From a virus (taxonomy: Duplodnaviria; Heunggongvirae; Uroviricota; Caudoviricetes), in IMG/VR virus record IMGVR_UViG_3300029186_000016, positions 1 through 19,269 of that record: a stretch of DNA of 19,269 nt, one strand, 5' to 3'. The number at the start of each line of letters is the position of its first letter. The first letter of the stretch is position 1. The position numbers and the translations under genes were made by a program. The notes beneath the pieces are model-generated. The model did not search any database and was not told the DNA's origin. It worked only from the letters and a program-made list of their open reading frames with translations. This document shows positions 4,277 through 15,061 of the stretch, piece after piece.

Positions 4277-4480
4277 AAATGTAGGTTAGCCTCTTACGTG
4301 CCGAAAGGCAAGGAGAAGCAGGCTATGAAGCAGCAAAAGGCGATGTTAATCGCCCTGATCGTCATCTGTTTAACCGTCATAGTGACGGCACTGGTAACGA
4401 GGAAAGACCTCTGCGAGGTACGAATCCGAACCGGCCAGATGGAGGTTGCTGTTTTCGTAGACTACGAATCTAGAGAGTAA
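4268..4480 (+). CDS. mok: mok-like reading frame (in-frame N-terminal extension of hok, 70 aa)
   Basis: ORF begins 57 nt upstream of the hok ATG in the same frame, as I recall for the chromosomal mokC/hokC and mokB/hokB pairs. Confidence 0.45.
   Translation: MSHKCRLASYVPKGKEKQAMKQQKAMLIALIVICLTVIVTALVTRKDLCEVRIRTGQMEVAVFVDYESRE
4325..4480 (+). CDS. hok: Hok/Gef-family type I toxin (51 aa)
   Basis: MKQQKAMLIALIVICLTVIVTALVTRKDLCEVRIRTGQMEVAVFVDYESRE has one N-terminal TM helix and the conserved RKDLCEV...EVA...YES signature of Hok/Gef/RelF proteins. GGAG SD upstream. Confidence 0.85.
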   Translation: MKQQKAMLIALIVICLTVIVTALVTRKDLCEVRIRTGQMEVAVFVDYESRE

Positions 4481-6365: not shown

Positions 6366-6731
6366 ATGACTGAACGCATAGAATTTGTTTTGCCTTACCC
6401 GCCAACGGTGAACACTTACTGGCGACGTCGTGGCAGCACATATTTTGTATCAAAAGCCGGTGAGCGTTATCGCCGGGATGTGGCGCTTATTGTTCGCCAG
6501 CAGCGGCTGAAATTAAACCTGTCCGGAAGGCTGGCGATAAAGATTATTGCAGAGCCACCGGATAAACGTCGTCGTGACCTGGACAATATCCTGAAAGCAC
6601 CACTGGATGCGCTGACGCATGCCGGACTTCTCATAGACGACGAGCAGTTTGATGAAATCAATATTGTGCGCGGTCAGCTCGTTCCTGGGGGGCGGCTGGG
6701 CGTGAAGATTTACAAAATTGAGAGTGAGTGA
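6366..6731 (+). CDS. rusA: Holliday-junction resolvase RusA
   Basis: The 121-aa translation carries the acidic RRRDLDNILKAPLDAL...DDEQ motifs of the RusA family. Its start overlaps the upstream stop. Confidence 0.85.
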   Translation: MTERIEFVLPYPPTVNTYWRRRGSTYFVSKAGERYRRDVALIVRQQRLKLNLSGRLAIKIIAEPPDKRRRDLDNILKAPLDALTHAGLLIDDEQFDEINIVRGQLVPGGRLGVKIYKIESE

Positions 6732-7282
6732 TCGTAAATATGATATATCCGGAAATTACAGGCAAAAGCGGCGAGCATTTACGTCTAAAAACGCTGGAAG
6801 CCGTCTGGATCCAGGGGAAATTACGGATGTGGGGGCGTTGGTCGTACATAGGTGGTGGCAAACCAGGAAATATGTTCAATCAGTTGCTGGCATCCAAAAA
6901 ACTGACAAAAACCGCAATCAATGAAGCCCTGCGTAGAATCAGGGAGTCAGGGATTGATAAACCAGAGCTGGAAGCATTCTTGCGAGAGATGATCGCTGGC
7001 AGACAGAAGAGCTGGTTGTCTCACTGTACTGATGCAGAGGCGTTACGCATTGATGGGGTGATAAGTAAAGCGCTTGCACGTTATCCTGGATTGATTGATA
7101 TCCTGCGGCAAAGGTACGAAGGGCGGGGGATGAGTAAACGCAAAATGGCTGAATTGTTGAATGAGGTTCACCCTGAGTGGTGCTATGCAACATGCCGCAA
7201 TCGTATAGATATGTGGCTGAGAATAGCTGAGTTTATTCTGTATCCACTGATGCGAGATGCATTTTCTTTTACTGACGCTTAG
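6728..7282 (+). CDS. Putative late-gene antiterminator (Q-like)
   Basis: Position immediately after rusA and before a promoter/terminator region, and a WGRW-type motif near the N-terminus as in some Q-family proteins. The true start may be the ATG at 6740. Family membership not verified. Confidence 0.55.
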   Translation: MIVNMIYPEITGKSGEHLRLKTLEAVWIQGKLRMWGRWSYIGGGKPGNMFNQLLASKKLTKTAINEALRRIRESGIDKPELEAFLREMIAGRQKSWLSHCTDAEALRIDGVISKALARYPGLIDILRQRYEGRGMSKRKMAELLNEVHPEWCYATCRNRIDMWLRIAEFILYPLMRDAFSFTDA

Positions 7283-7339: not shown

Positions 7340-7447
7340 TGCAGTTTTAGAAAAAAAGCTTGTATTTTTAGCCATAAACTGTTTCAATCCAGCTACGCTT
7401 CGCAAAGCTGTACCGCGAGGCGAATAGCAGACATGGACACCTGAAAG
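7340..7447 (+). promoter_or_regulatory. Candidate late promoter (PR'-like) and Q-utilisation region
   Basis: Non-coding, A/T-rich stretch between the Q-like gene and a strong intrinsic terminator. Promoter-like hexamers are present (e.g. TTGTAT at 7360-7365) but the exact -10 is ambiguous. Confidence 0.4.
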
Positions 7448-7471
7448 AACCCGCTTTATGCGGGTTTTTTT
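7448..7471 (+). terminator. Rho-independent terminator (tR'-like)
   Basis: AACCCGC-TTTAT-GCGGGTT stem followed by a T7 run. Confidence 0.75.
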
Positions 7472-7594
7472 ATGCCTGAAAAACGGCACAGAACATTAAA
7501 CGCGCTGGTAGTTGTGAATACTGGTCTTTCAGCTTGCTGGCTTTTTGGACAAGAGTTATTGGTATGTCACGTTAACCGGAAAAGGGAAAAAGGC

Positions 7595-7792
7595 ATGCTA
7601 AAACAGCAGGATATGACCGAAACCGCCAGAGTGGTGTTTAATGAATTAAGCGTCACCGAACCGGCGACCGTCGGGGAAATTGCGCAGAATACTTACCTTT
7701 CACGCGAACGTTGCCAGTTAATACTGACTCAGCTTGTTATGGCGGGTCTGGCAGATTATCAGTTCGGTTGTTACAGACGCCTTCCGCAGTGA
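7595..7792 (+). CDS. Small winged-helix/HTH DNA-binding protein (65 aa)
   Basis: Internal ATG at 7595 with GGGAAAAAGG SD. Translation contains an HTH-like stretch TVGEIAQNTYLSRERCQLILTQLVMAGL. The 7472 start begins inside the terminator T-run with no SD and is rejected. Confidence 0.5.
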   Translation: MLKQQDMTETARVVFNELSVTEPATVGEIAQNTYLSRERCQLILTQLVMAGLADYQFGCYRRLPQ

Positions 7793-7942
7793 AGGCTTTT
7801 TAATTTGTGGTAATGGGCGGCTGGTGGGTGTTAGCGGCACCTGCCAGCCATCTGCTCATGCGTTGGGGTCACAAGCAAACCTCAGGCCCATCTGCTTTGC
7901 GCAAAAGCGGTATGAGCCTATCAGAGAAGTGCTTATTGATCT

Positions 7943-8992
7943 ATGATTAATACTGTAAAAATATCCAGTTGTGAGTTAATCAACGCTGATTGCCTGGAGT
8001 TTATCCAGACCTTACCGGAAAACTCTGTCGATCTGATAGTCACAGACCCGCCATACTTTAAAGTGAAGCCCGAGGGCTGGGATAACCAGTGGAAGGGCGA
8101 CGATGATTACCTGAAATGGCTGGACCAGTGTCTGGCGCAGTTCTGGCGGGTACTGAAGCCTGCCGGAAGTCTTTACCTGTTCTGTGGTCATCGCCTGGCA
8201 TCTGACACCGAAATCATGATGCGTGAGCGCTTTAATGTGCTGAACCACATTATCTGGGCGAAGCCGTCCGGACGCTGGAACGGGTGCAATAAGGAAAGTC
8301 TGCGGGCGTATTTTCCGGCAACAGAGCGCATTCTGTTTGCAGAACATTATCAGGGACCGTATCGCCCGAAAGATGATGGCTATGTGGCACAGGGGCGCGG
8401 GCTAAAACAGCACGTCATGGCCCCGCTGATTTCTTACTTTCGTGATGCGCGTAAATCACTGGGAATAACGTCAAAACAGATAGCGGAAGCCACCGGAAAG
8501 AAAAACATGGCTTCGCACTGGTTTGGTGCCAGTCAGTGGCAGTTACCGAACGAGGGTGATTACAATAAATTGCAGGCGTTGTTTGCGCGTGTTGCGGCAG
8601 AAAAACATCAGCGCGGGGAACTGGAAAAGCCACACCACCAGCTGGTCAGCACATACAGTGAGCTGAACCGGCAGTACACGGAACTGCTGAGTGAATATAA
8701 AAATTTGCGGCGGTATTTCGGTGTGACGGCGCAGGTTCCGTACACCGATGTCTGGACGCATAAACCGGTGCAGTACTATCCAGGAAAACATCCGTGCGAA
8801 AAACCGGCAGAAATGCTGCAGCAGATAATCAACGCGAGCAGTCGTCCGGGTGACCTGGTTGCAGATTTTTTTATGGGCTCAGGTTCAACGGTAAAAGCTG
8901 CACTGGCGCTCGGGCGTCGTGCGATTGGCGTTGAACTGGAGACCGGACGTTTTGAGCAGACAGTCAGGGAAGTTCAGGATTTAATCGTTTGA
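7943..8992 (+). CDS. Beta-class DNA methyltransferase (N6-adenine or N4-cytosine)
   Basis: Motif IV DPPY (LIVTDPPY) is N-terminal and motif I FxGxG (DFFMGSGST) is C-terminal, i.e. the beta-class order. A roughly 150-aa insert with an HTH-like segment lies between them. Confidence 0.85.
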   Translation: MINTVKISSCELINADCLEFIQTLPENSVDLIVTDPPYFKVKPEGWDNQWKGDDDYLKWLDQCLAQFWRVLKPAGSLYLFCGHRLASDTEIMMRERFNVLNHIIWAKPSGRWNGCNKESLRAYFPATERILFAEHYQGPYRPKDDGYVAQGRGLKQHVMAPLISYFRDARKSLGITSKQIAEATGKKNMASHWFGASQWQLPNEGDYNKLQALFARVAAEKHQRGELEKPHHQLVSTYSELNRQYTELLSEYKNLRRYFGVTAQVPYTDVWTHKPVQYYPGKHPCEKPAEMLQQIINASSRPGDLVADFFMGSGSTVKAALALGRRAIGVELETGRFEQTVREVQDLIV

Positions 8993-9041
8993 AACGGATG
9001 ATATTGAAGAATTAATTACGCGTCGTTATTATGCGGCTCCC

Positions 9042-9117
9042 GGCCCTTTAGCTCAGTGGTGAGAGCGAGCGACTCATAATCGCCAGGTCGCTGGTTCAAA
9101 TCCAGCAAGGGCCACCA
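9042..9117 (+). tRNA. ileZ: tRNA with anticodon CAU; resembles tRNA-Ile2 (lysidine type), though Met cannot be excluded from the anticodon alone
   Basis: Cloverleaf folded by hand: acceptor GGCCCTT/AAGGGCC, D-stem GCTC/GAGC, anticodon loop CTCATAA, T-loop TTCAAAT, encoded CCA. Sequence resembles E. coli ileX as I recall it. Confidence 0.8.
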
Positions 9118-9124
9118 TCACATA

Positions 9125-9201
9125 CCGCCATTAGCTCATCAGGATAGAGCGCCAGCCTTCGAAGCTGGTTGCGCGGGGTTCGAGTCCTCGATGGCGGTCC
9201 A
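9125..9201 (+). tRNA. argN: tRNA-Arg (anticodon UCG)
   Basis: Cloverleaf folded by hand: acceptor CCGCCAT/ATGGCGG (unusual C1:G72), D-stem GCTC/GAGC, anticodon stem CCAGC/GCTGG with loop CTTCGAA, T-loop TTCGAGT, encoded CCA. Confidence 0.75.
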
Positions 9202-9214
9202 TTATCTGTACCCT

Positions 9215-9291
9215 GCGTTGTTAGCTCAGCCGGACAGAGCAATTGCCTTCTAAGCAATCGGTCACTGGTTCGAATCCAGTACAACGCGCCA
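9215..9291 (+). tRNA. argO: tRNA-Arg (anticodon UCU)
   Basis: Cloverleaf folded by hand: acceptor GCGTTGT/ACAACGC, D-stem GCTC/GAGC, anticodon stem ATTGC/GCAAT with loop CTTCTAA, T-loop TTCGAAT, encoded CCA. Confidence 0.85.
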
Positions 9292-9305
9292 CACTTATTT
9301 TCCCT

Positions 9306-9331
9306 GGCTCGCTTTTGCGGGCCTTTTTTTT
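9306..9331 (+). terminator. Rho-independent terminator after the tRNA trio
   Basis: GGCTCGC-TTTT-GCGGGCC stem (one G-U pair) followed by T8. Confidence 0.7.
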
Positions 9332-9526
9332 AAATGTCTCACAATTCAGACGGTTGACTGTTGTCTGGTTGGCGGGGAGTTTGTTAAAAGAAACTGGCAT
9401 GGTGAATCCCCCTGTGCGGAGGGGCAATCAGCGAGTAGGTATATGGGATAATCGCGGATTCAGGTGCTGGTACTGAATTCACCGGGAGGCACCCGGCACC
9501 ATGCAATGGCACATAGCGCCACTCTC

Positions 9527-9562
9527 CAGCCCCTCTCCGGAGGGGCTGTTTATATTGATTTT
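9527..9562 (+). terminator. Strong GC hairpin plus T-rich tract (plus-strand terminator; also lies 3' of the minus-strand ORF)
   Basis: Perfect 9-bp stem CAGCCCCTC-TCCG-GAGGGGCTG followed by TTTATATTGATTTT. Confidence 0.65.
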
Positions 9563-9582
9563 GTCAGATGTGAGTAAACTGC

Positions 9583-9918
9583 TTATGGACTTTGTTGTTT
9601 TAGCCCATAAGGACATATTTGCAGAGTGCAACGGTTATTAAAGCATTCATTCAATACGTTATCTGTATTTGTAGGGCATTCCTGGCTGTTTTTGATTAAA
9701 TTCCAGAATGTTTTATTGAATGGTACTACGTTGTAAATGGTTACAGGTAGCACTTTGTTATTGAGCATGATGCCTGTGTGAGTCAGTGTAAATATACTTT
9801 CAGGAGGTAAGAAAGCATCCGATTGATACCAGATTATTAATTTTATTTTACTCCATATGACTGAAAAAGATATTCCGCATGATGGCTGGATAACTGTATC
9901 AATCACAATCCACTTCAT
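9583..9918 (-). CDS. Hypothetical protein (111 aa), AT-rich cargo gene on the opposite strand
   Basis: Only long ORF in a visibly AT-rich stretch. AAGGAAA SD 6 nt upstream of the ATG on the minus strand. Stop TAA. No recognisable motif or signal peptide. Confidence 0.45.
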
Positions 9919-10163
9919 TTAGTTTCCTTGTTTATGCCTTGCTGGTGATGTTCTGAAAAGTATAAATGATATTTTTGATTGTAAACCATAGAGCAGAATT
10001 ATTTTTCTGATGTTGTTTATTGTTTATTTAAATGCAGGGTGGTTTATATCTCGTCTTGTAGTTTATCCATGCATATCTGCTTGATGATGAGGTTTTTATT
10101 TAAGGTATGGTTTTGTGTTTTTTCTGTATTACATGTCAGGTATTTTAAAGAATCATTTTTCAG

Positions 10164-14541: not shown

Positions 14542-15061
14542 ATGAAGGTTAATAAAAAGAAACTTGCCGAAATTTTCAACGTGGATCCGCGAACGATTGA
14601 ACGCTGGCAGTCTCAGGGACTCCCTTGCGTCTCCGGAGGTGGTAAGGGCGTTGAATCTGTATTTGATACCGCCATGGCAATTCAGTGGTATGCGCAGAGG
14701 GAAGCTGATATCGAAAATGAAAAACTCCGTAAAGAGGTTGAGGATTACAGGGCTGCCAGTGAGGCAGATCTCCAGCCTGGGACTATTGAGTACGAACGCC
14801 ATCGACTTACGCGTGCGCAGGCCGACGCACAGGAGCTGAAGAATGCCAGAGACTCCGCAGAGGTGGTGGAAACCGCATTCTGTACTTTCGTGCTGTCACG
14901 GATCGCAGGTGAAATTGCCAGTATTCTTGACGGGATCCCTCTCTCGGTACAGCGGCGTTTTCCGGAACTGGAAAACCGACATGTTGATTTCCTGAAACGG
15001 GATATCATCAAAGCCATGAACAAAGCAGCCGCGCTGGATGAACTGATACCGGGGTTGCTGA

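What the first reader, a model, noticed from the sequence alone, without database searches (positions are those of the whole stretch)
7472..8992. Beta-class DNA methyltransferase preceded by a small wHTH protein and a pair of direct repeats
The MTase (DPPY then FxGxG) has no adjacent restriction endonuclease, so it is an orphan that could serve anti-restriction or epigenetic control. Immediately upstream is a 65-aa HTH-containing ORF (7595..7792). The 150-bp spacer before the MTase carries two copies of (G/C)CCATCTGCT 40 bp apart (7847-7856 and 7887-7896) plus a palindrome TTGCGCAA (7897-7904). This layout resembles controller (C-protein)-regulated methyltransferases. The MTase also has a large central insert with an HTH-like segment.
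Basis: partly seen in the sequence, partly recalled or inferred. Interest (0 to 1): 0.5.

Follow-up and report, generated by a model that had tools for sequence, protein, structure and literature searches.

The report
Structured leader gating a promiscuous phage methyltransferase
The methyltransferase is a close relative of M.EcoGII, a known prophage enzyme that methylates every adenine, and the "spacer with repeats" in front of it is a conserved folded RNA leader, absent from Rfam, that base-pairs the enzyme's ribosome-binding region.

Summary
The sequence features exist where stated, but the C-protein reading does not hold.

- **Setting.** The window is an E. coli lambdoid prophage. The order is Q-like antiterminator, terminator, 65-aa winged-helix ORF (7595-7792), 150-nt spacer, methyltransferase (7943-8992), tRNAs, lysis genes, terminase.
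- **Methyltransferase.** It is at least 91% identical to M.EcoGII. That enzyme is the characterised non-specific adenine methyltransferase, silent in lysogens and harmful when over-expressed. The "central insert" is its normal target-recognition domain.
- **Spacer.** It is more conserved than neutral sites in the flanking genes: 58-80% identity where four-fold codon sites keep 23-57%. It folds into helices supported by compensatory changes in 72 distinct sequences from Enterobacterales and Vibrio. Helix P3 pairs the 13 bases before the start codon. No Rfam family matches.
They are pieces of these helices. The repeat is perfect in only 1 of 72 variants.
- **Small protein.** It is a real gene (dN/dS 0.14) with a minimal winged-helix fold, not a C-protein fold. 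It accompanies the leader in about 70% of loci.
- **Distant relatives.** Vibrio and Shewanella relatives carry a Mu Com-like zinc-ribbon gene before the methyltransferase.

Best model: Q-dependent late transcription plus Mu com/mom-like translational gating of a toxic modification enzyme. The activator is unknown; the winged-helix protein is the leading candidate.

The parts
6728..7282 (+). Q-like late antiterminator (DUF1133; RefSeq start at 6740)
   Evidence: PF06576 E=2e-101 with a weaker PF06530 Phage_antitermQ match. phrog_753 'anti-termination protein Q-like' E=9e-79. A Q gene sits at this position in all related phages.
7360..7388 (+). Candidate late promoter (PR'-like): TTGTAT, 17 nt, TTCAAT. 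Weak and inferred only.
   Evidence: Read from the sequence. It scores 8 of 12, below the scan threshold. A start near 7395 would give a roughly 75-nt RNA ending at the terminator. That stretch gives sub-threshold Rfam matches to short prophage RNAs: AgrB 27 bits, isrK 21.6 bits.
7444..7470 (+). tR'-like intrinsic terminator (AAAGAACCCGC / GCGGGTTTTTT) between Q and the module
   Evidence: Inverted repeat I2 followed by a T run. The conserved module shared with other phages starts here, at query position 163-178. SfV annotates a rho-independent terminator at the same place.
7595..7792 (+). 65-aa stand-alone winged-helix protein (phrog_331, function unknown)
   Evidence: AF2 pLDDT 90.5, three helices plus a beta hairpin. 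Foldseek finds winged-helix domains of IclR/MarR regulators, SelB and Z-alpha. Median dN/dS is 0.14, and helix 3 (RCQLILTQL) is nearly invariant. 334 homologues, none with a tested function.
7779..7806 (+). P0 hairpin (7779-7784 / 7791-7796) plus U-rich tail. Terminator-like; holds the small ORF's stop codon.
   Evidence: Terminator-like hit. A hairpin at this spot with a different sequence occurs in most Enterobacteriaceae loci, including loci without the small ORF.
7803..7942 (+). Conserved structured 5' leader of the methyltransferase mRNA (helices P1-P5). Not in Rfam.
   Evidence: Alignments A1 and A4. RNAalifold. Pair counts: 94.6% of cells paired against 23-44% in slid controls, and 18 pairs with compensatory change against 4-9. 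MFE -70.4 kcal/mol, z=-3.0. Nucleotide identity 58-80% where four-fold sites keep 23-57%. No Rfam match at E<=10, or at E<=1 in three divergent loci.
7813..7859 (+). P1 (7814-7818 / 7854-7858) stacked on the P2 hairpin (7819-7832 / 7836-7849). The invariant AAUGGGCG lies at its 5' edge.
   Evidence: Helix coordinates. P2 shows compensatory changes: GGCUGGU..ACCAGCC in E. coli, GACUGUA..UACAGUC in Proteus and Providencia, UGCGGUG..CACCGCC in Serratia.
7820..7827 (+). Chi octamer GCTGGTGG forming the 5' arm of P2
   Evidence: An exact Chi is present in 55 of 72 distinct leaders. It is replaced by compensating sequences in Proteus, Providencia, Serratia and Vibrio.
7866..7942 (+). Long irregular hairpin. 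P3 is 7866-7871 / 7937-7942, P3b is 7873-7877 / 7930-7934, P3c is 7881-7883 / 7924-7926. P4 is 7884-7887 / 7916-7919 with 7889-7891 / 7912-7914. P5 is 7892-7898 / 7904-7910. P3 and P3b pair positions -13 to -1 of the methyltransferase AUG.
   Evidence: One search gives the coordinates; most of those positions are unpaired with probability below 0.1. Compensatory changes occur in all 8 pairs of P3 and P3b and in 2 pairs of P4. In Vibrio L192 the same 3' strand is AUGAC, the start of the com-like ORF.
7943..8992 (+). M.EcoGII-type beta-class N6-adenine DNA methyltransferase, 349 aa
   Evidence: PF01555. 319 of 350 residues identical to the M.EcoGII sequence read from the PMC11551740 supplement. 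90% identical to the phage 1720a-02 enzyme that the M.EcoGII paper names as very similar.
9042..9291 (+). Three tRNA genes (CAT, TCG, TCT anticodons) that follow the module in the late operon (context)
   Evidence: ARAGORN and Rfam. In Stx phages such as phiP27 the stx genes follow these tRNAs.

Best explanation
This is the DNA-protection module of a lambdoid prophage's late operon. It is controlled at two levels.

1. **The enzyme.** It is an M.EcoGII-type methyltransferase, expected to methylate adenines without sequence preference. That would protect progeny phage DNA from many restriction systems. This is shown by homology; the activity is inferred from the characterised orthologue.
2. **Transcription.** The gene lies downstream of the Q antiterminator, behind a tR'-like terminator and a second terminator-like hairpin (P0). 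Only Q-modified polymerase should reach it, which would explain the silence in lysogens. This is inferred from gene order and from established lambda and Stx-phage biology.
3. **The leader.** The 140 nt before the start codon fold into a conserved RNA. A 5' hairpin (P1/P2) is followed by a long hairpin (P3-P5). The base of that hairpin pairs the -13 to -1 region, including the nearly invariant UGAUC that probably serves as the ribosome-binding sequence. The structure is shown by covariation. Its function is inferred: it holds translation of a toxic enzyme down until something opens it, as the translation-inhibition structure of phage Mu mom does.
4. **The opener.** It is unknown. The best candidate is the 65-aa winged-helix protein encoded just upstream. 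It could act on the leader as phage Mu Com acts on mom mRNA.
For: **Enzyme identity**
- Identity to M.EcoGII and to the 1720a-02 enzyme.
- Published properties of M.EcoGII: non-specific, silent in the lysogen, deleterious when expressed (PMC5778455; PMC7544214).

**Late-operon position**
- Q, terminator, small ORF, methyltransferase, then lysis genes in SfV, mEp460, and Morganella and Providencia phages.
- Q ... methyltransferase, tRNA, stx2e in phiP27.
- The module occurs in 2881 of 5426 complete E. coli genomes.

**Leader under selection**
- It is more conserved than the flanking coding DNA.
- It is found directly before the methyltransferase ATG in more than 50 of 80 species representatives.

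**RNA structure**
- 94.6% of cells paired against 23-44% in slid controls.
- 18 pairs with compensatory change against 4-9 in slid controls.
- 0 of 500 shuffles reach the observed values.
- G-U pairs favour the sense strand: 94.6% paired against 86.3% on the antisense strand.
- The MFE and centroid folds reproduce the consensus structure, z=-3.0.
- No conserved reading frame crosses the spacer: the mini-ORF is 6-45 codons long and its stop moves.

**Link to translation**
- P3 and P3b cover -13 to -1.
- In Vibrio the same helix covers the AUG of whatever ORF follows.

**Mu-like logic**
- Shewanella and Vibrio relatives have a Com-like zinc ribbon directly upstream of, or overlapping, the methyltransferase (PF10122, 33 bits in L203).
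- The Com/TIS mechanism, and com-linked non-specific methyltransferases, are published (PMC6483171, PMC3299994).

**Winged-helix protein as candidate**
- It is conserved next to the leader and has an invariant helix 3.
- Weak homologues sit at the same position in Vibrio.
Against: - No expression, binding or methylation data were available. Every functional step beyond homology and structure is inference.
- Energy models alone do not make this ribosome-binding region exceptional. Unpaired probability is 0.18, third lowest of 26 genes in the window, and the family mean is 0.30.
- About 30% of loci keep the leader and methyltransferase without the winged-helix gene. That protein therefore cannot be an obligatory cis-encoded activator.
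- Winged helices usually bind DNA.
- Most sequences are related enterobacterial prophages, so the shuffle controls overstate significance. The slid controls are the fairer comparison.
- The 5' strand of P1 and P2 is nearly invariant in Enterobacteriaceae and contains Chi. Part of the conservation could therefore be selected at the DNA level.
Confidence: 0.6

Rival explanations
1. The small protein is a controller (C-protein)-like transcription factor that binds the two direct repeats and the palindrome in the spacer DNA, and so times methyltransferase transcription.
For: - The small HTH-type gene lies directly upstream of the methyltransferase, and this synteny is conserved.
- The 9-mer occurs twice against 0.17 expected.
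Against: - The fold is a winged helix, not the all-helical Xre type of C proteins.
- There is no endonuclease gene.
- The repeat is perfect in 1 of 72 variants.
- Repeats and palindrome are accounted for as strands and a loop of covarying RNA helices.
- No promoter-like site lies in the spacer.
- C-boxes lie upstream of the C gene, not downstream.
Confidence: 0.05
2. The winged-helix protein is a DNA-binding regulator with a different target. That target could be its own upstream region, the invariant ATGGGC / GCCCAT inverted pair as DNA, or m6A-modified DNA. The RNA leader would work on its own as a constitutive damper of translation.
For: - Winged helices are mostly DNA binders, and the top fold matches are IclR and MarR regulators.
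- The leader persists without the protein in about 30% of loci.
- Helix 3 is invariant while the P2 stem sequence varies. If the protein binds here, it reads invariant bases rather than the stem.
Against: - The protein has only 65 residues and no obvious dimerisation or effector domain.
- No conserved palindrome was seen upstream of its gene.
- Its tight, long-range linkage to the leader and methyltransferase, rather than to other late genes, suggests a shared task.
Confidence: 0.2
3. The leader is a ligand- or condition-sensing riboregulator that toggles between two folds. Candidate signals are SAM or SAH, temperature, or RNase III cleavage of the roughly 20-bp P1/P2 stack. No dedicated protein activator would be needed.
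For: - Many invariant unpaired bases: AAUGGGCG, CAU, UCAC, AAC(C/U), GCCCA, GAGCnUA.
- AUGGGC can pair with either GCUCAU (P1) or GCCCAU. One natural double change (Mixta L134: AUGAGC with GGCUCA) keeps the second pairing.
- The alternative fold costs only about 5.7 kcal/mol in the window.
Against: - No match to any Rfam riboswitch.
- Only one double change supports the alternative pairing.
- No ligand can be inferred from sequence.
Confidence: 0.12
4. The spacer is conserved for a DNA-level reason rather than as RNA. Candidates are a Chi recombination and protection site, or another protein-binding site.
For: - A perfect Chi in the orientation expected to face a RecBCD entering from cos.
- Chi is present in 55 of 72 leaders.
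- Mosaic junctions fall right after it in 15 viral loci.
Against: - Chi explains 8 of about 140 conserved positions.
- It is replaced by compensating hairpin arms in Proteus, Providencia, Serratia and Vibrio.
- G-U pairs favour sense-strand RNA.
- Covariation extends through P3-P5.
Confidence: 0.06
5. The spacer encodes a small protein. That would be the 45-codon ORF starting at ATG 7813 (MGGWWVL...), whose stop overlaps the methyltransferase start.
For: - The ATG and the first six codons are invariant in Enterobacteriaceae.
- In the window and in Proteus types the ORF ends at or over the methyltransferase ATG.
Against: - ORF length varies over 6, 7, 16, 30, 33, 43 and 45 codons.
- Single-base indels change the frame while the nucleotides stay conserved.
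Confidence: 0.03

Closest known systems
M.EcoGII (and M.EcoGI) of E. coli O104:H4 C227-11, the non-specific adenine methyltransferase
   Same: Same length (349 aa) and at least 91% identity. Same DPPY ... FxGxG order with a central four-helix target-recognition domain. Same home in lambdoid prophages.
   Different: Nothing of substance in the protein. What is added here is the genomic setting: late operon, upstream winged-helix gene and conserved RNA leader. The M.EcoGII papers I read do not describe this setting.
Phage Mu com-mom operon: Com zinc-finger activator plus the translation-inhibition structure on mom mRNA
   Same: A late-expressed, host-toxic, broad-specificity adenine-modifying enzyme. 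Its translation start region is sequestered in a stem. A hairpin lies 5' of that stem, and a small nucleic-acid-binding protein is encoded immediately upstream (PMC6483171, PMC3299994). Vibrio and Shewanella relatives of this methyltransferase actually carry a Com-like gene.
   Different: The enzyme is a SAM-dependent methyltransferase, not Mom. The upstream protein in this window is a winged helix, not a Com zinc ribbon. The leader sequence is unrelated as far as tested. No activator binding has been shown.
Com-linked non-specific adenine methyltransferases of Mu-like prophages (Hin1523, Nma1821, Hia5)
   Same: Promiscuous adenine methyltransferases that take the place of an anti-restriction function in a temperate phage. 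They were not detected in lysogens and are presumed to be translationally gated (PMC3299994).
   Different: A different phage type (Mu-like against lambdoid). Judging by the catalytic aspartate near residue 194 used in that paper, probably a different methyltransferase class; I did not compare the sequences.
Controller (C-protein) regulated restriction-modification systems
   Same: A small HTH-type gene precedes a modification gene.
   Different: C proteins are Xre-type helical dimers that bind inverted C-boxes upstream of their own gene and time an endonuclease. Here the fold is a winged helix, there is no endonuclease, and the 'boxes' are non-conserved direct repeats inside an RNA structure.
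Lambda and Stx-phage late operon control (Q, PR', tR')
   Same: Q gene, a short promoter-proximal region ending in an intrinsic terminator, then late genes. In Stx phages this same methyltransferase module lies between Q and stx.
   Different: The promoter itself was not identified with confidence here. Q is of the DUF1133 type.

Membership tests
M.EcoGII-type beta-class N6-adenine DNA methyltransferase | N6_N4_Mtase domain with motif IV (DPPY) N-terminal and motif I (FxGxG) C-terminal | tested here: met
   PF01555 E=1.7e-44 across residues 29-340. TDPPYF lies at 34-39 and FMGSG at 310-314.
M.EcoGII-type beta-class N6-adenine DNA methyltransferase | Close full-length sequence identity to the characterised enzyme, including the central target-recognition domain | tested here: met
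   319 of 350 residues identical to the machine-read M.EcoGII sequence, with no gaps in the central domain. 90% identical to the 1720a-02 homologue.
M.EcoGII-type beta-class N6-adenine DNA methyltransferase | Methylates adenine in any sequence context | not testable with these tools
   Needs methylome or enzyme assays. Inferred from 91% identity only.
M.EcoGII-type beta-class N6-adenine DNA methyltransferase | Encoded in a prophage and silent in the lysogen | tested here: inconclusive
   The prophage late-operon location is shown. The expression state cannot be tested here.
Controller (C-protein) regulated R-M system | Controller is an Xre-type, all-helical HTH protein | tested here: not met
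   The AF2 model is three helices plus a beta hairpin. Foldseek finds winged-helix domains only. Pfam gives only a sub-threshold TrmB hit.
Controller (C-protein) regulated R-M system | Conserved inverted-repeat C-boxes upstream of the controller gene | tested here: not met
   The repeats are direct, lie downstream of the small gene, and are perfect in 1 of 72 variants. No conserved palindrome was seen upstream of the small gene.
Controller (C-protein) regulated R-M system | Cognate restriction endonuclease gene in the same unit | tested here: not met
   The neighbours are Q, tRNAs, an IraM-like gene, an esterase and lysis genes.
Mu com/mom-type translational gating | Translation start region of the modification gene sequestered in a conserved stem | tested here: met
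   P3 and P3b pair -13 to -1. All 8 of their pairs show compensatory change. Caveat: predicted accessibility is only third lowest of 26 genes.
Mu com/mom-type translational gating | Com zinc-ribbon protein (PF10122) encoded immediately upstream | tested here: not met
   The upstream protein in the window is a winged helix with no Com match. A Com-like ORF is present in Shewanella L203 (33.3 bits, above the cut-off). Vibrio relatives score below the cut-off (18 bits).
Mu com/mom-type translational gating | Activator binds a hairpin 5' of the inhibitory stem and exposes the start site | not testable with these tools
   A suitable hairpin (P1/P2) exists. Binding needs experiments.
Any described RNA family (Rfam 15) | Covariance-model match over 7803-7942 | tested here: not met
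   No match at E<=10 in the window. No match at E<=1 over the homologous stretch of Proteus, Vibrio and Salmonella loci.
TrmB / MarR-type winged-helix transcription factor | Winged-helix fold | tested here: met
TrmB / MarR-type winged-helix transcription factor | Reaches the family's curated score and has the dimerisation or effector parts of those regulators | tested here: not met
   TrmB scores 18 bits against a 25.6 cut-off. No NCBIfam hit. The protein is a bare 65-aa domain.
Chi recombination hotspot | Octamer 5'-GCTGGTGG-3' oriented toward the cos end | tested here: met
   It lies at 7820-7827 on the strand of late transcription, with terminase genes downstream at 14542. Activity was not tested, and the orientation rule is taken from established lambda genetics.

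The most novel reading that the evidence does not exclude
The 65-aa winged-helix protein and the leader together form a Com-like translational switch built from different parts. The winged helix would bind the invariant bases around the P1/P2 hairpin of the late mRNA and shift AUGGGC from pairing with GCUCAU to pairing with GCCCAU. That would unzip P4 and P3 and release the ribosome-binding site of a methyltransferase that would otherwise kill the cell. This would be a new class of phage RNA-binding translational activator. It would also be the native control circuit of an enzyme widely used as a laboratory tool, and it sits directly upstream of stx in many Shiga-toxin phages.
Probability: 0.2. 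Interest if true: 0.75.

Novelty: new variant of a known kind. Interest (0 to 1): 0.55.

Why it matters
- **An open question about M.EcoGII.** The enzyme is widely used as a laboratory reagent, and its relatives sit in about half of complete E. coli genomes. The papers I read report only that the native gene is silent. They do not say how it is kept silent and then released.
- **A testable answer.** A conserved, covarying leader that pairs the ribosome-binding region gives a concrete hypothesis. The Com-like genes in distant relatives tie it to the classic Mu mom paradigm.
- **A wider pattern.** It suggests that phages repeatedly gate promiscuous adenine modifiers at the level of translation.
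- **Position in Stx phages.** The element lies on the late transcript just upstream of the toxin genes, so its processing or folding could bear on that transcript.
- **A new RNA family.** The leader is a candidate RNA family, and a working covariance model was built here.

Tried and rejected
- **Direct repeats as operators.** Rejected because they are not conserved as repeats.
- **Palindrome as a protein site.** It is the top of hairpin P5.
- **The 106-aa extended small ORF from 7472.** Rejected because of a frame-breaking indel in SfV and the RefSeq call.
- **Small peptide in the spacer.** Rejected because the length and frame vary.
- **Chi as the reason for the invariant 21-mer.** Only partly right. 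Proteus, Providencia, Serratia and Vibrio replace it with compensating arms.
- **Known RNA family.** None found in two Rfam scans.
- **Promoter inside the module.** The consensus scan found none on the + strand between 6700 and 9000.
- **Energy-only test of ribosome-site occlusion.** The window's site is low (0.18) but not unique, so the argument rests on covariation.
- **Metagenome scan with GGTCACAAGCNAACC.** Of 120 loci, only 14 were real leaders, and none added variants.
- **Homology of the Vibrio upstream ORFs to the small protein.** Suggestive only: hhalign probability 28% with E=6e-4, and hmmsearch E=0.0035 and 0.024.
- **Literature.** Searches for a described regulator or leader of M.EcoGII-type genes, and for prophage sRNAs at this site, found nothing relevant.
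Full report
**Where the window comes from**

The window matches a prophage of E. coli WP5-S18-ESBL-08 at 100% identity. The RefSeq annotation and my Pfam scans agree on the gene order:

- DUF968 gene, then RusA.
- A Q-like antiterminator (DUF1133, 6728-7282).
- The 65-aa ORF (7595-7792).
- The methyltransferase (7943-8992).
- Three tRNA genes (9042-9291).
- An IraM-like gene on the other strand.
- A sialate esterase, holin, lysozyme and Rz.
- Terminase from 14542.

This is the late region of a lambdoid phage. An inverted repeat followed by a T run lies at 7444-7470, between Q and the small ORF. The block shared with other phages begins exactly there. Phage SfV annotates a rho-independent terminator at the same position.

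**Checking the observation**

All features are at the stated coordinates.

- The methyltransferase has TDPPYF near its N-terminus and FMGSG near its C-terminus. It matches PF01555.
- The small ORF is 65 aa.
- The spacer is 150 nt.
- CCATCTGCT occurs at 7848-7856 and 7888-7896 and nowhere else in the window. Chance expectation is 0.17, and 2 of 200 shuffles reach two copies.
- TTTGCGCAAA at 7896-7905 is a palindrome.
- No endonuclease gene is nearby.

The longer 106-aa reading from 7472, which set the finding's start coordinate, is not supported.

**The methyltransferase is a known enzyme**

The protein has the same length as M.EcoGII. It is 319/350 identical to the M.EcoGII sequence printed in the supplement of PMC11551740. 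That copy is machine-read and has a few reading errors, so the true identity is at least 91%. The protein is also 90% identical to the phage 1720a-02 enzyme, which the original M.EcoGII paper names as very similar.

M.EcoGII methylates adenine in any context, in DNA and RNA. It is not expressed in the lysogen. The authors report that constitutive expression is deleterious (PMC5778455; PMC7544214).

The catalytic fold is made of residues 1-134 and 260-349. Residues 160-237 form a four-helix target-recognition domain (PMC11551740).

The module is common. 2881 of 5426 complete E. coli genomes have a match. In Stx phages such as phiP27 it lies between Q and the toxin genes.

**The spacer is the interesting part**

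I aligned the region from nine phages: E. coli, Shigella SfV, Klebsiella, Morganella and Providencia. The spacer was more conserved than the coding DNA on either side.

Across pairs where four-fold degenerate sites of the methyltransferase keep only 23-57% identity, the spacer keeps 58-80%.

It is not coding. The only ORF that starts in it (ATG 7813) is 6 to 45 codons long in different variants. Single-base indels shift its frame while the nucleotides remain conserved.

An exact-word scan of viral contigs gave 119 loci. A protein-guided scan of species-representative genomes gave 80 loci.

I built a covariance model from 45 distinct leaders. It finds the element immediately before the methyltransferase ATG in these genera:

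- Escherichia, Salmonella, Citrobacter, Enterobacter, Klebsiella, Kluyvera and Buttiauxella.
- Erwinia, Rosenbergiella and Mixta.
- Providencia, Proteus and Morganella.
- Serratia.
- Three Vibrio loci, more weakly.

**The structure**

RNAalifold, single-sequence folding and the model alignment agree. Window coordinates are:

| Helix | 5' strand | 3' strand |
|---|---|---|
| P0 | 7779-7784 | 7791-7796 |
| P1 | 7814-7818 | 7854-7858 |
| P2 | 7819-7832 | 7836-7849 |
| P3 | 7866-7871 | 7937-7942 |
| P3b | 7873-7877 | 7930-7934 |
| P3c | 7881-7883 | 7924-7926 |
| P4 (lower part) | 7884-7887 | 7916-7919 |
| P4 (upper part) | 7889-7891 | 7912-7914 |
| P5 | 7892-7898 | 7904-7910 |

Pair counts on 72 distinct sequences:

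| Measure | Observed | Slid controls | 500 shuffles |
|---|---|---|---|
| Cells forming a standard pair | 94.6% | 23-44% | none reach it |
| Pairs with a compensatory change | 18 of 33 | 4-9 | mean 9.7, none reach 18 |
| Covariation score | 0.227 | at most 0.073 | none reach it |

The sequences are related, so I give most weight to the slid controls.

- P2 changes on both arms: GGCUGGU..ACCAGCC in E. coli, GACUGUA..UACAGUC in Proteus and Providencia, UGCGGUG..CACCGCC in Serratia.
- All eight pairs of P3 and P3b show compensatory changes.
- G-U pairs make the sense strand fit better than the antisense strand, 94.6% against 86.3%.
- The sense strand folds at -70.4 kcal/mol (z=-3.0). The antisense strand folds at -56.8 kcal/mol.
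- No Rfam family matches at E<=10 in the window.
- None matches at E<=1 across three divergent loci.

- Copy 1 of the repeat is the 3' end of P2, the junction, and part of the P1 3' strand.
- Copy 2 is the 5' strand of P4 and P5.
- The palindrome is the top of P5.
- In 71 of 72 distinct leaders the two 'copies' share only 3-6 of 9 positions.

**Link to translation**

P3 and P3b pair positions -13 to -1 of the methyltransferase AUG. Most of those bases are unpaired with probability below 0.1 in the window.

The nearly invariant UGAUC just before the AUG is complementary to the GGAUCA of the 16S rRNA 3' end. Its partner strand G(G/A)UCAC resembles that rRNA sequence. This reading rests on my knowledge of the 16S sequence and is an inference.

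In Vibrio L192 the equivalent 3' strand is AUGAC, the start codon of the ORF that follows the leader there. The helix therefore tracks the next translation start rather than a particular gene.

One caveat matters. By energy models alone the site is only third lowest of 26 genes in the window, and the family mean is 0.30. The case rests on covariation, not on thermodynamics.

**The Mu connection**

In Shewanella L203 the methyltransferase is preceded and overlapped by a 55-aa ORF that passes the Pfam threshold for Mu Com (PF10122, 33.3 bits). Vibrio relatives have similar CxxC...CxxC ORFs, with Com as a best or near-best hit but below threshold.

Mu Com binds a hairpin next to the translation-inhibition structure of mom mRNA and exposes the start site. 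Mom is a host-toxic, broad-specificity adenine modifier (PMC6483171; PMC3299994). Mu-like prophages of Haemophilus and Neisseria have com-like genes followed by non-specific adenine methyltransferases.

The enterobacterial module has the same logic: a late, toxic, promiscuous modifier, a sequestered start, an upstream hairpin, and a small nucleic-acid-binding protein. It has no Com.

**The small protein**

- It is a real gene. Median dN/dS is 0.14, and against SfV dN is 0.027 with dS 0.88.
- The model (pLDDT 90.5) is a three-helix, two-strand winged helix.
- Structure matches are winged-helix domains of IclR and MarR regulators, methyltransferase dimerisation domains, SelB bound to RNA, and Z-alpha. 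None is a C protein.
- PHROGs files it as unknown (phrog_331).
- Source databases call it 'TrmB family' or 'DprA-like winged helix', without tested function.
- Helix 3 (RCQLILTQL) is nearly invariant while the N-terminal half diverges to about 50%. That implies a conserved target.
- It lies directly upstream of the leader in 108 of 129 motif-bearing viral segments and in 38 of about 55 genome loci.
- It is absent from 4 viral and about 17 genome loci that keep the leader and methyltransferase.
- Weakly similar ORFs sit at the same position in Vibrio and Aliivibrio.

The protein is therefore linked to the module but separable from it. It is the leading candidate for a factor acting on the leader, and the evidence goes no further than that.

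**A possible switch**

The invariant AUGGGC can pair with GCUCAU (P1) or with the invariant GCCCAU, which is the 5' strand of P4. In Mixta L134 both otherwise invariant sites have changed together (AUGAGC with GGCUCA), which keeps the second pairing. Forcing that pairing in the window costs 5.7 kcal/mol. This is one event, so I treat it as a lead.

**Verdict**

The enzyme is already known. The C-protein interpretation fails on its defining features. What is new is a conserved, covarying leader RNA, with an associated winged-helix gene, that most likely gates translation of a toxic methyltransferase in the Q-dependent late operon. Only the structure and the conservation are shown here. The function, the trigger and the role of the small protein are inferred.

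Noticed in passing
window 7820-7827 (and 5348, 13219, 13621, 13668 on +; 3607, 5990, 8635 on -): The 5' arm of hairpin P2 is a perfect Chi octamer on the strand of late transcription, left of cos. Chi occurs 8 times in the window against 0.77 expected. In 15 viral loci the small ORF and the Chi motif are followed by unrelated DNA straight after the motif, for example in L013, L029, L047 and L087. This suggests a mosaic junction at Chi.
   Followed up: partly
window 7360-7473: The stretch between Q and the terminator looks like a short promoter-proximal transcript of about 75 nt. It gives sub-threshold Rfam matches to prophage and Hfq-binding sRNAs: AgrB 27.1 bits, isrK 21.6 bits, OrzO-P 20.9 bits. 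It may be a late-promoter sRNA of the kind known from other lambdoid prophages.
   Followed up: no
window 9004-9291 and 9300-10160: A promoter-like site (TTGAAG, 17 nt, TATTAT) lies just before the three tRNA genes. ARAGORN calls the first tRNA Met (CAT), while RefSeq calls it Ile. The slot that holds stx in phiP27 carries no toxin genes here. An IraM-like gene sits on the opposite strand at 9583-9918.
   Followed up: no
L193, L195, L196, L199, L207 about 60-200 nt upstream of the methyltransferase; also L191 about 2160-2200: Vibrio, Aliivibrio and Psychromonas loci share a conserved non-coding motif, (GAUGC)CUUGAGUACCUGAGACCCA ... GGAGAGGAAGCA, followed by a hairpin. It lies between the small upstream ORF and the methyltransferase or leader. 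No Rfam family matched it in L191, apart from a weak isrJ hit nearby.
   Followed up: no
L190, L191, L192, L201, L203, L197 (ORFs ending just before or overlapping the methyltransferase start): Mu Com-like zinc-ribbon ORFs of 36-55 aa precede M.EcoGII-family methyltransferases in Vibrio and Shewanella. In Vibrio the order is small winged-helix-like ORF, leader-like RNA, com-like ORF, methyltransferase.
   Followed up: partly
window 4325-4480: A Hok/Gef-family toxin gene is annotated in the early region of the same prophage (L001 9043-9198).
   Followed up: no
L172 (Erwinia tracheiphila) about 2160-2500: In this locus the small ORF lacks its stop and reads on through the leader, giving 114 aa. 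This is probably a decayed or mis-assembled copy.
   Followed up: no
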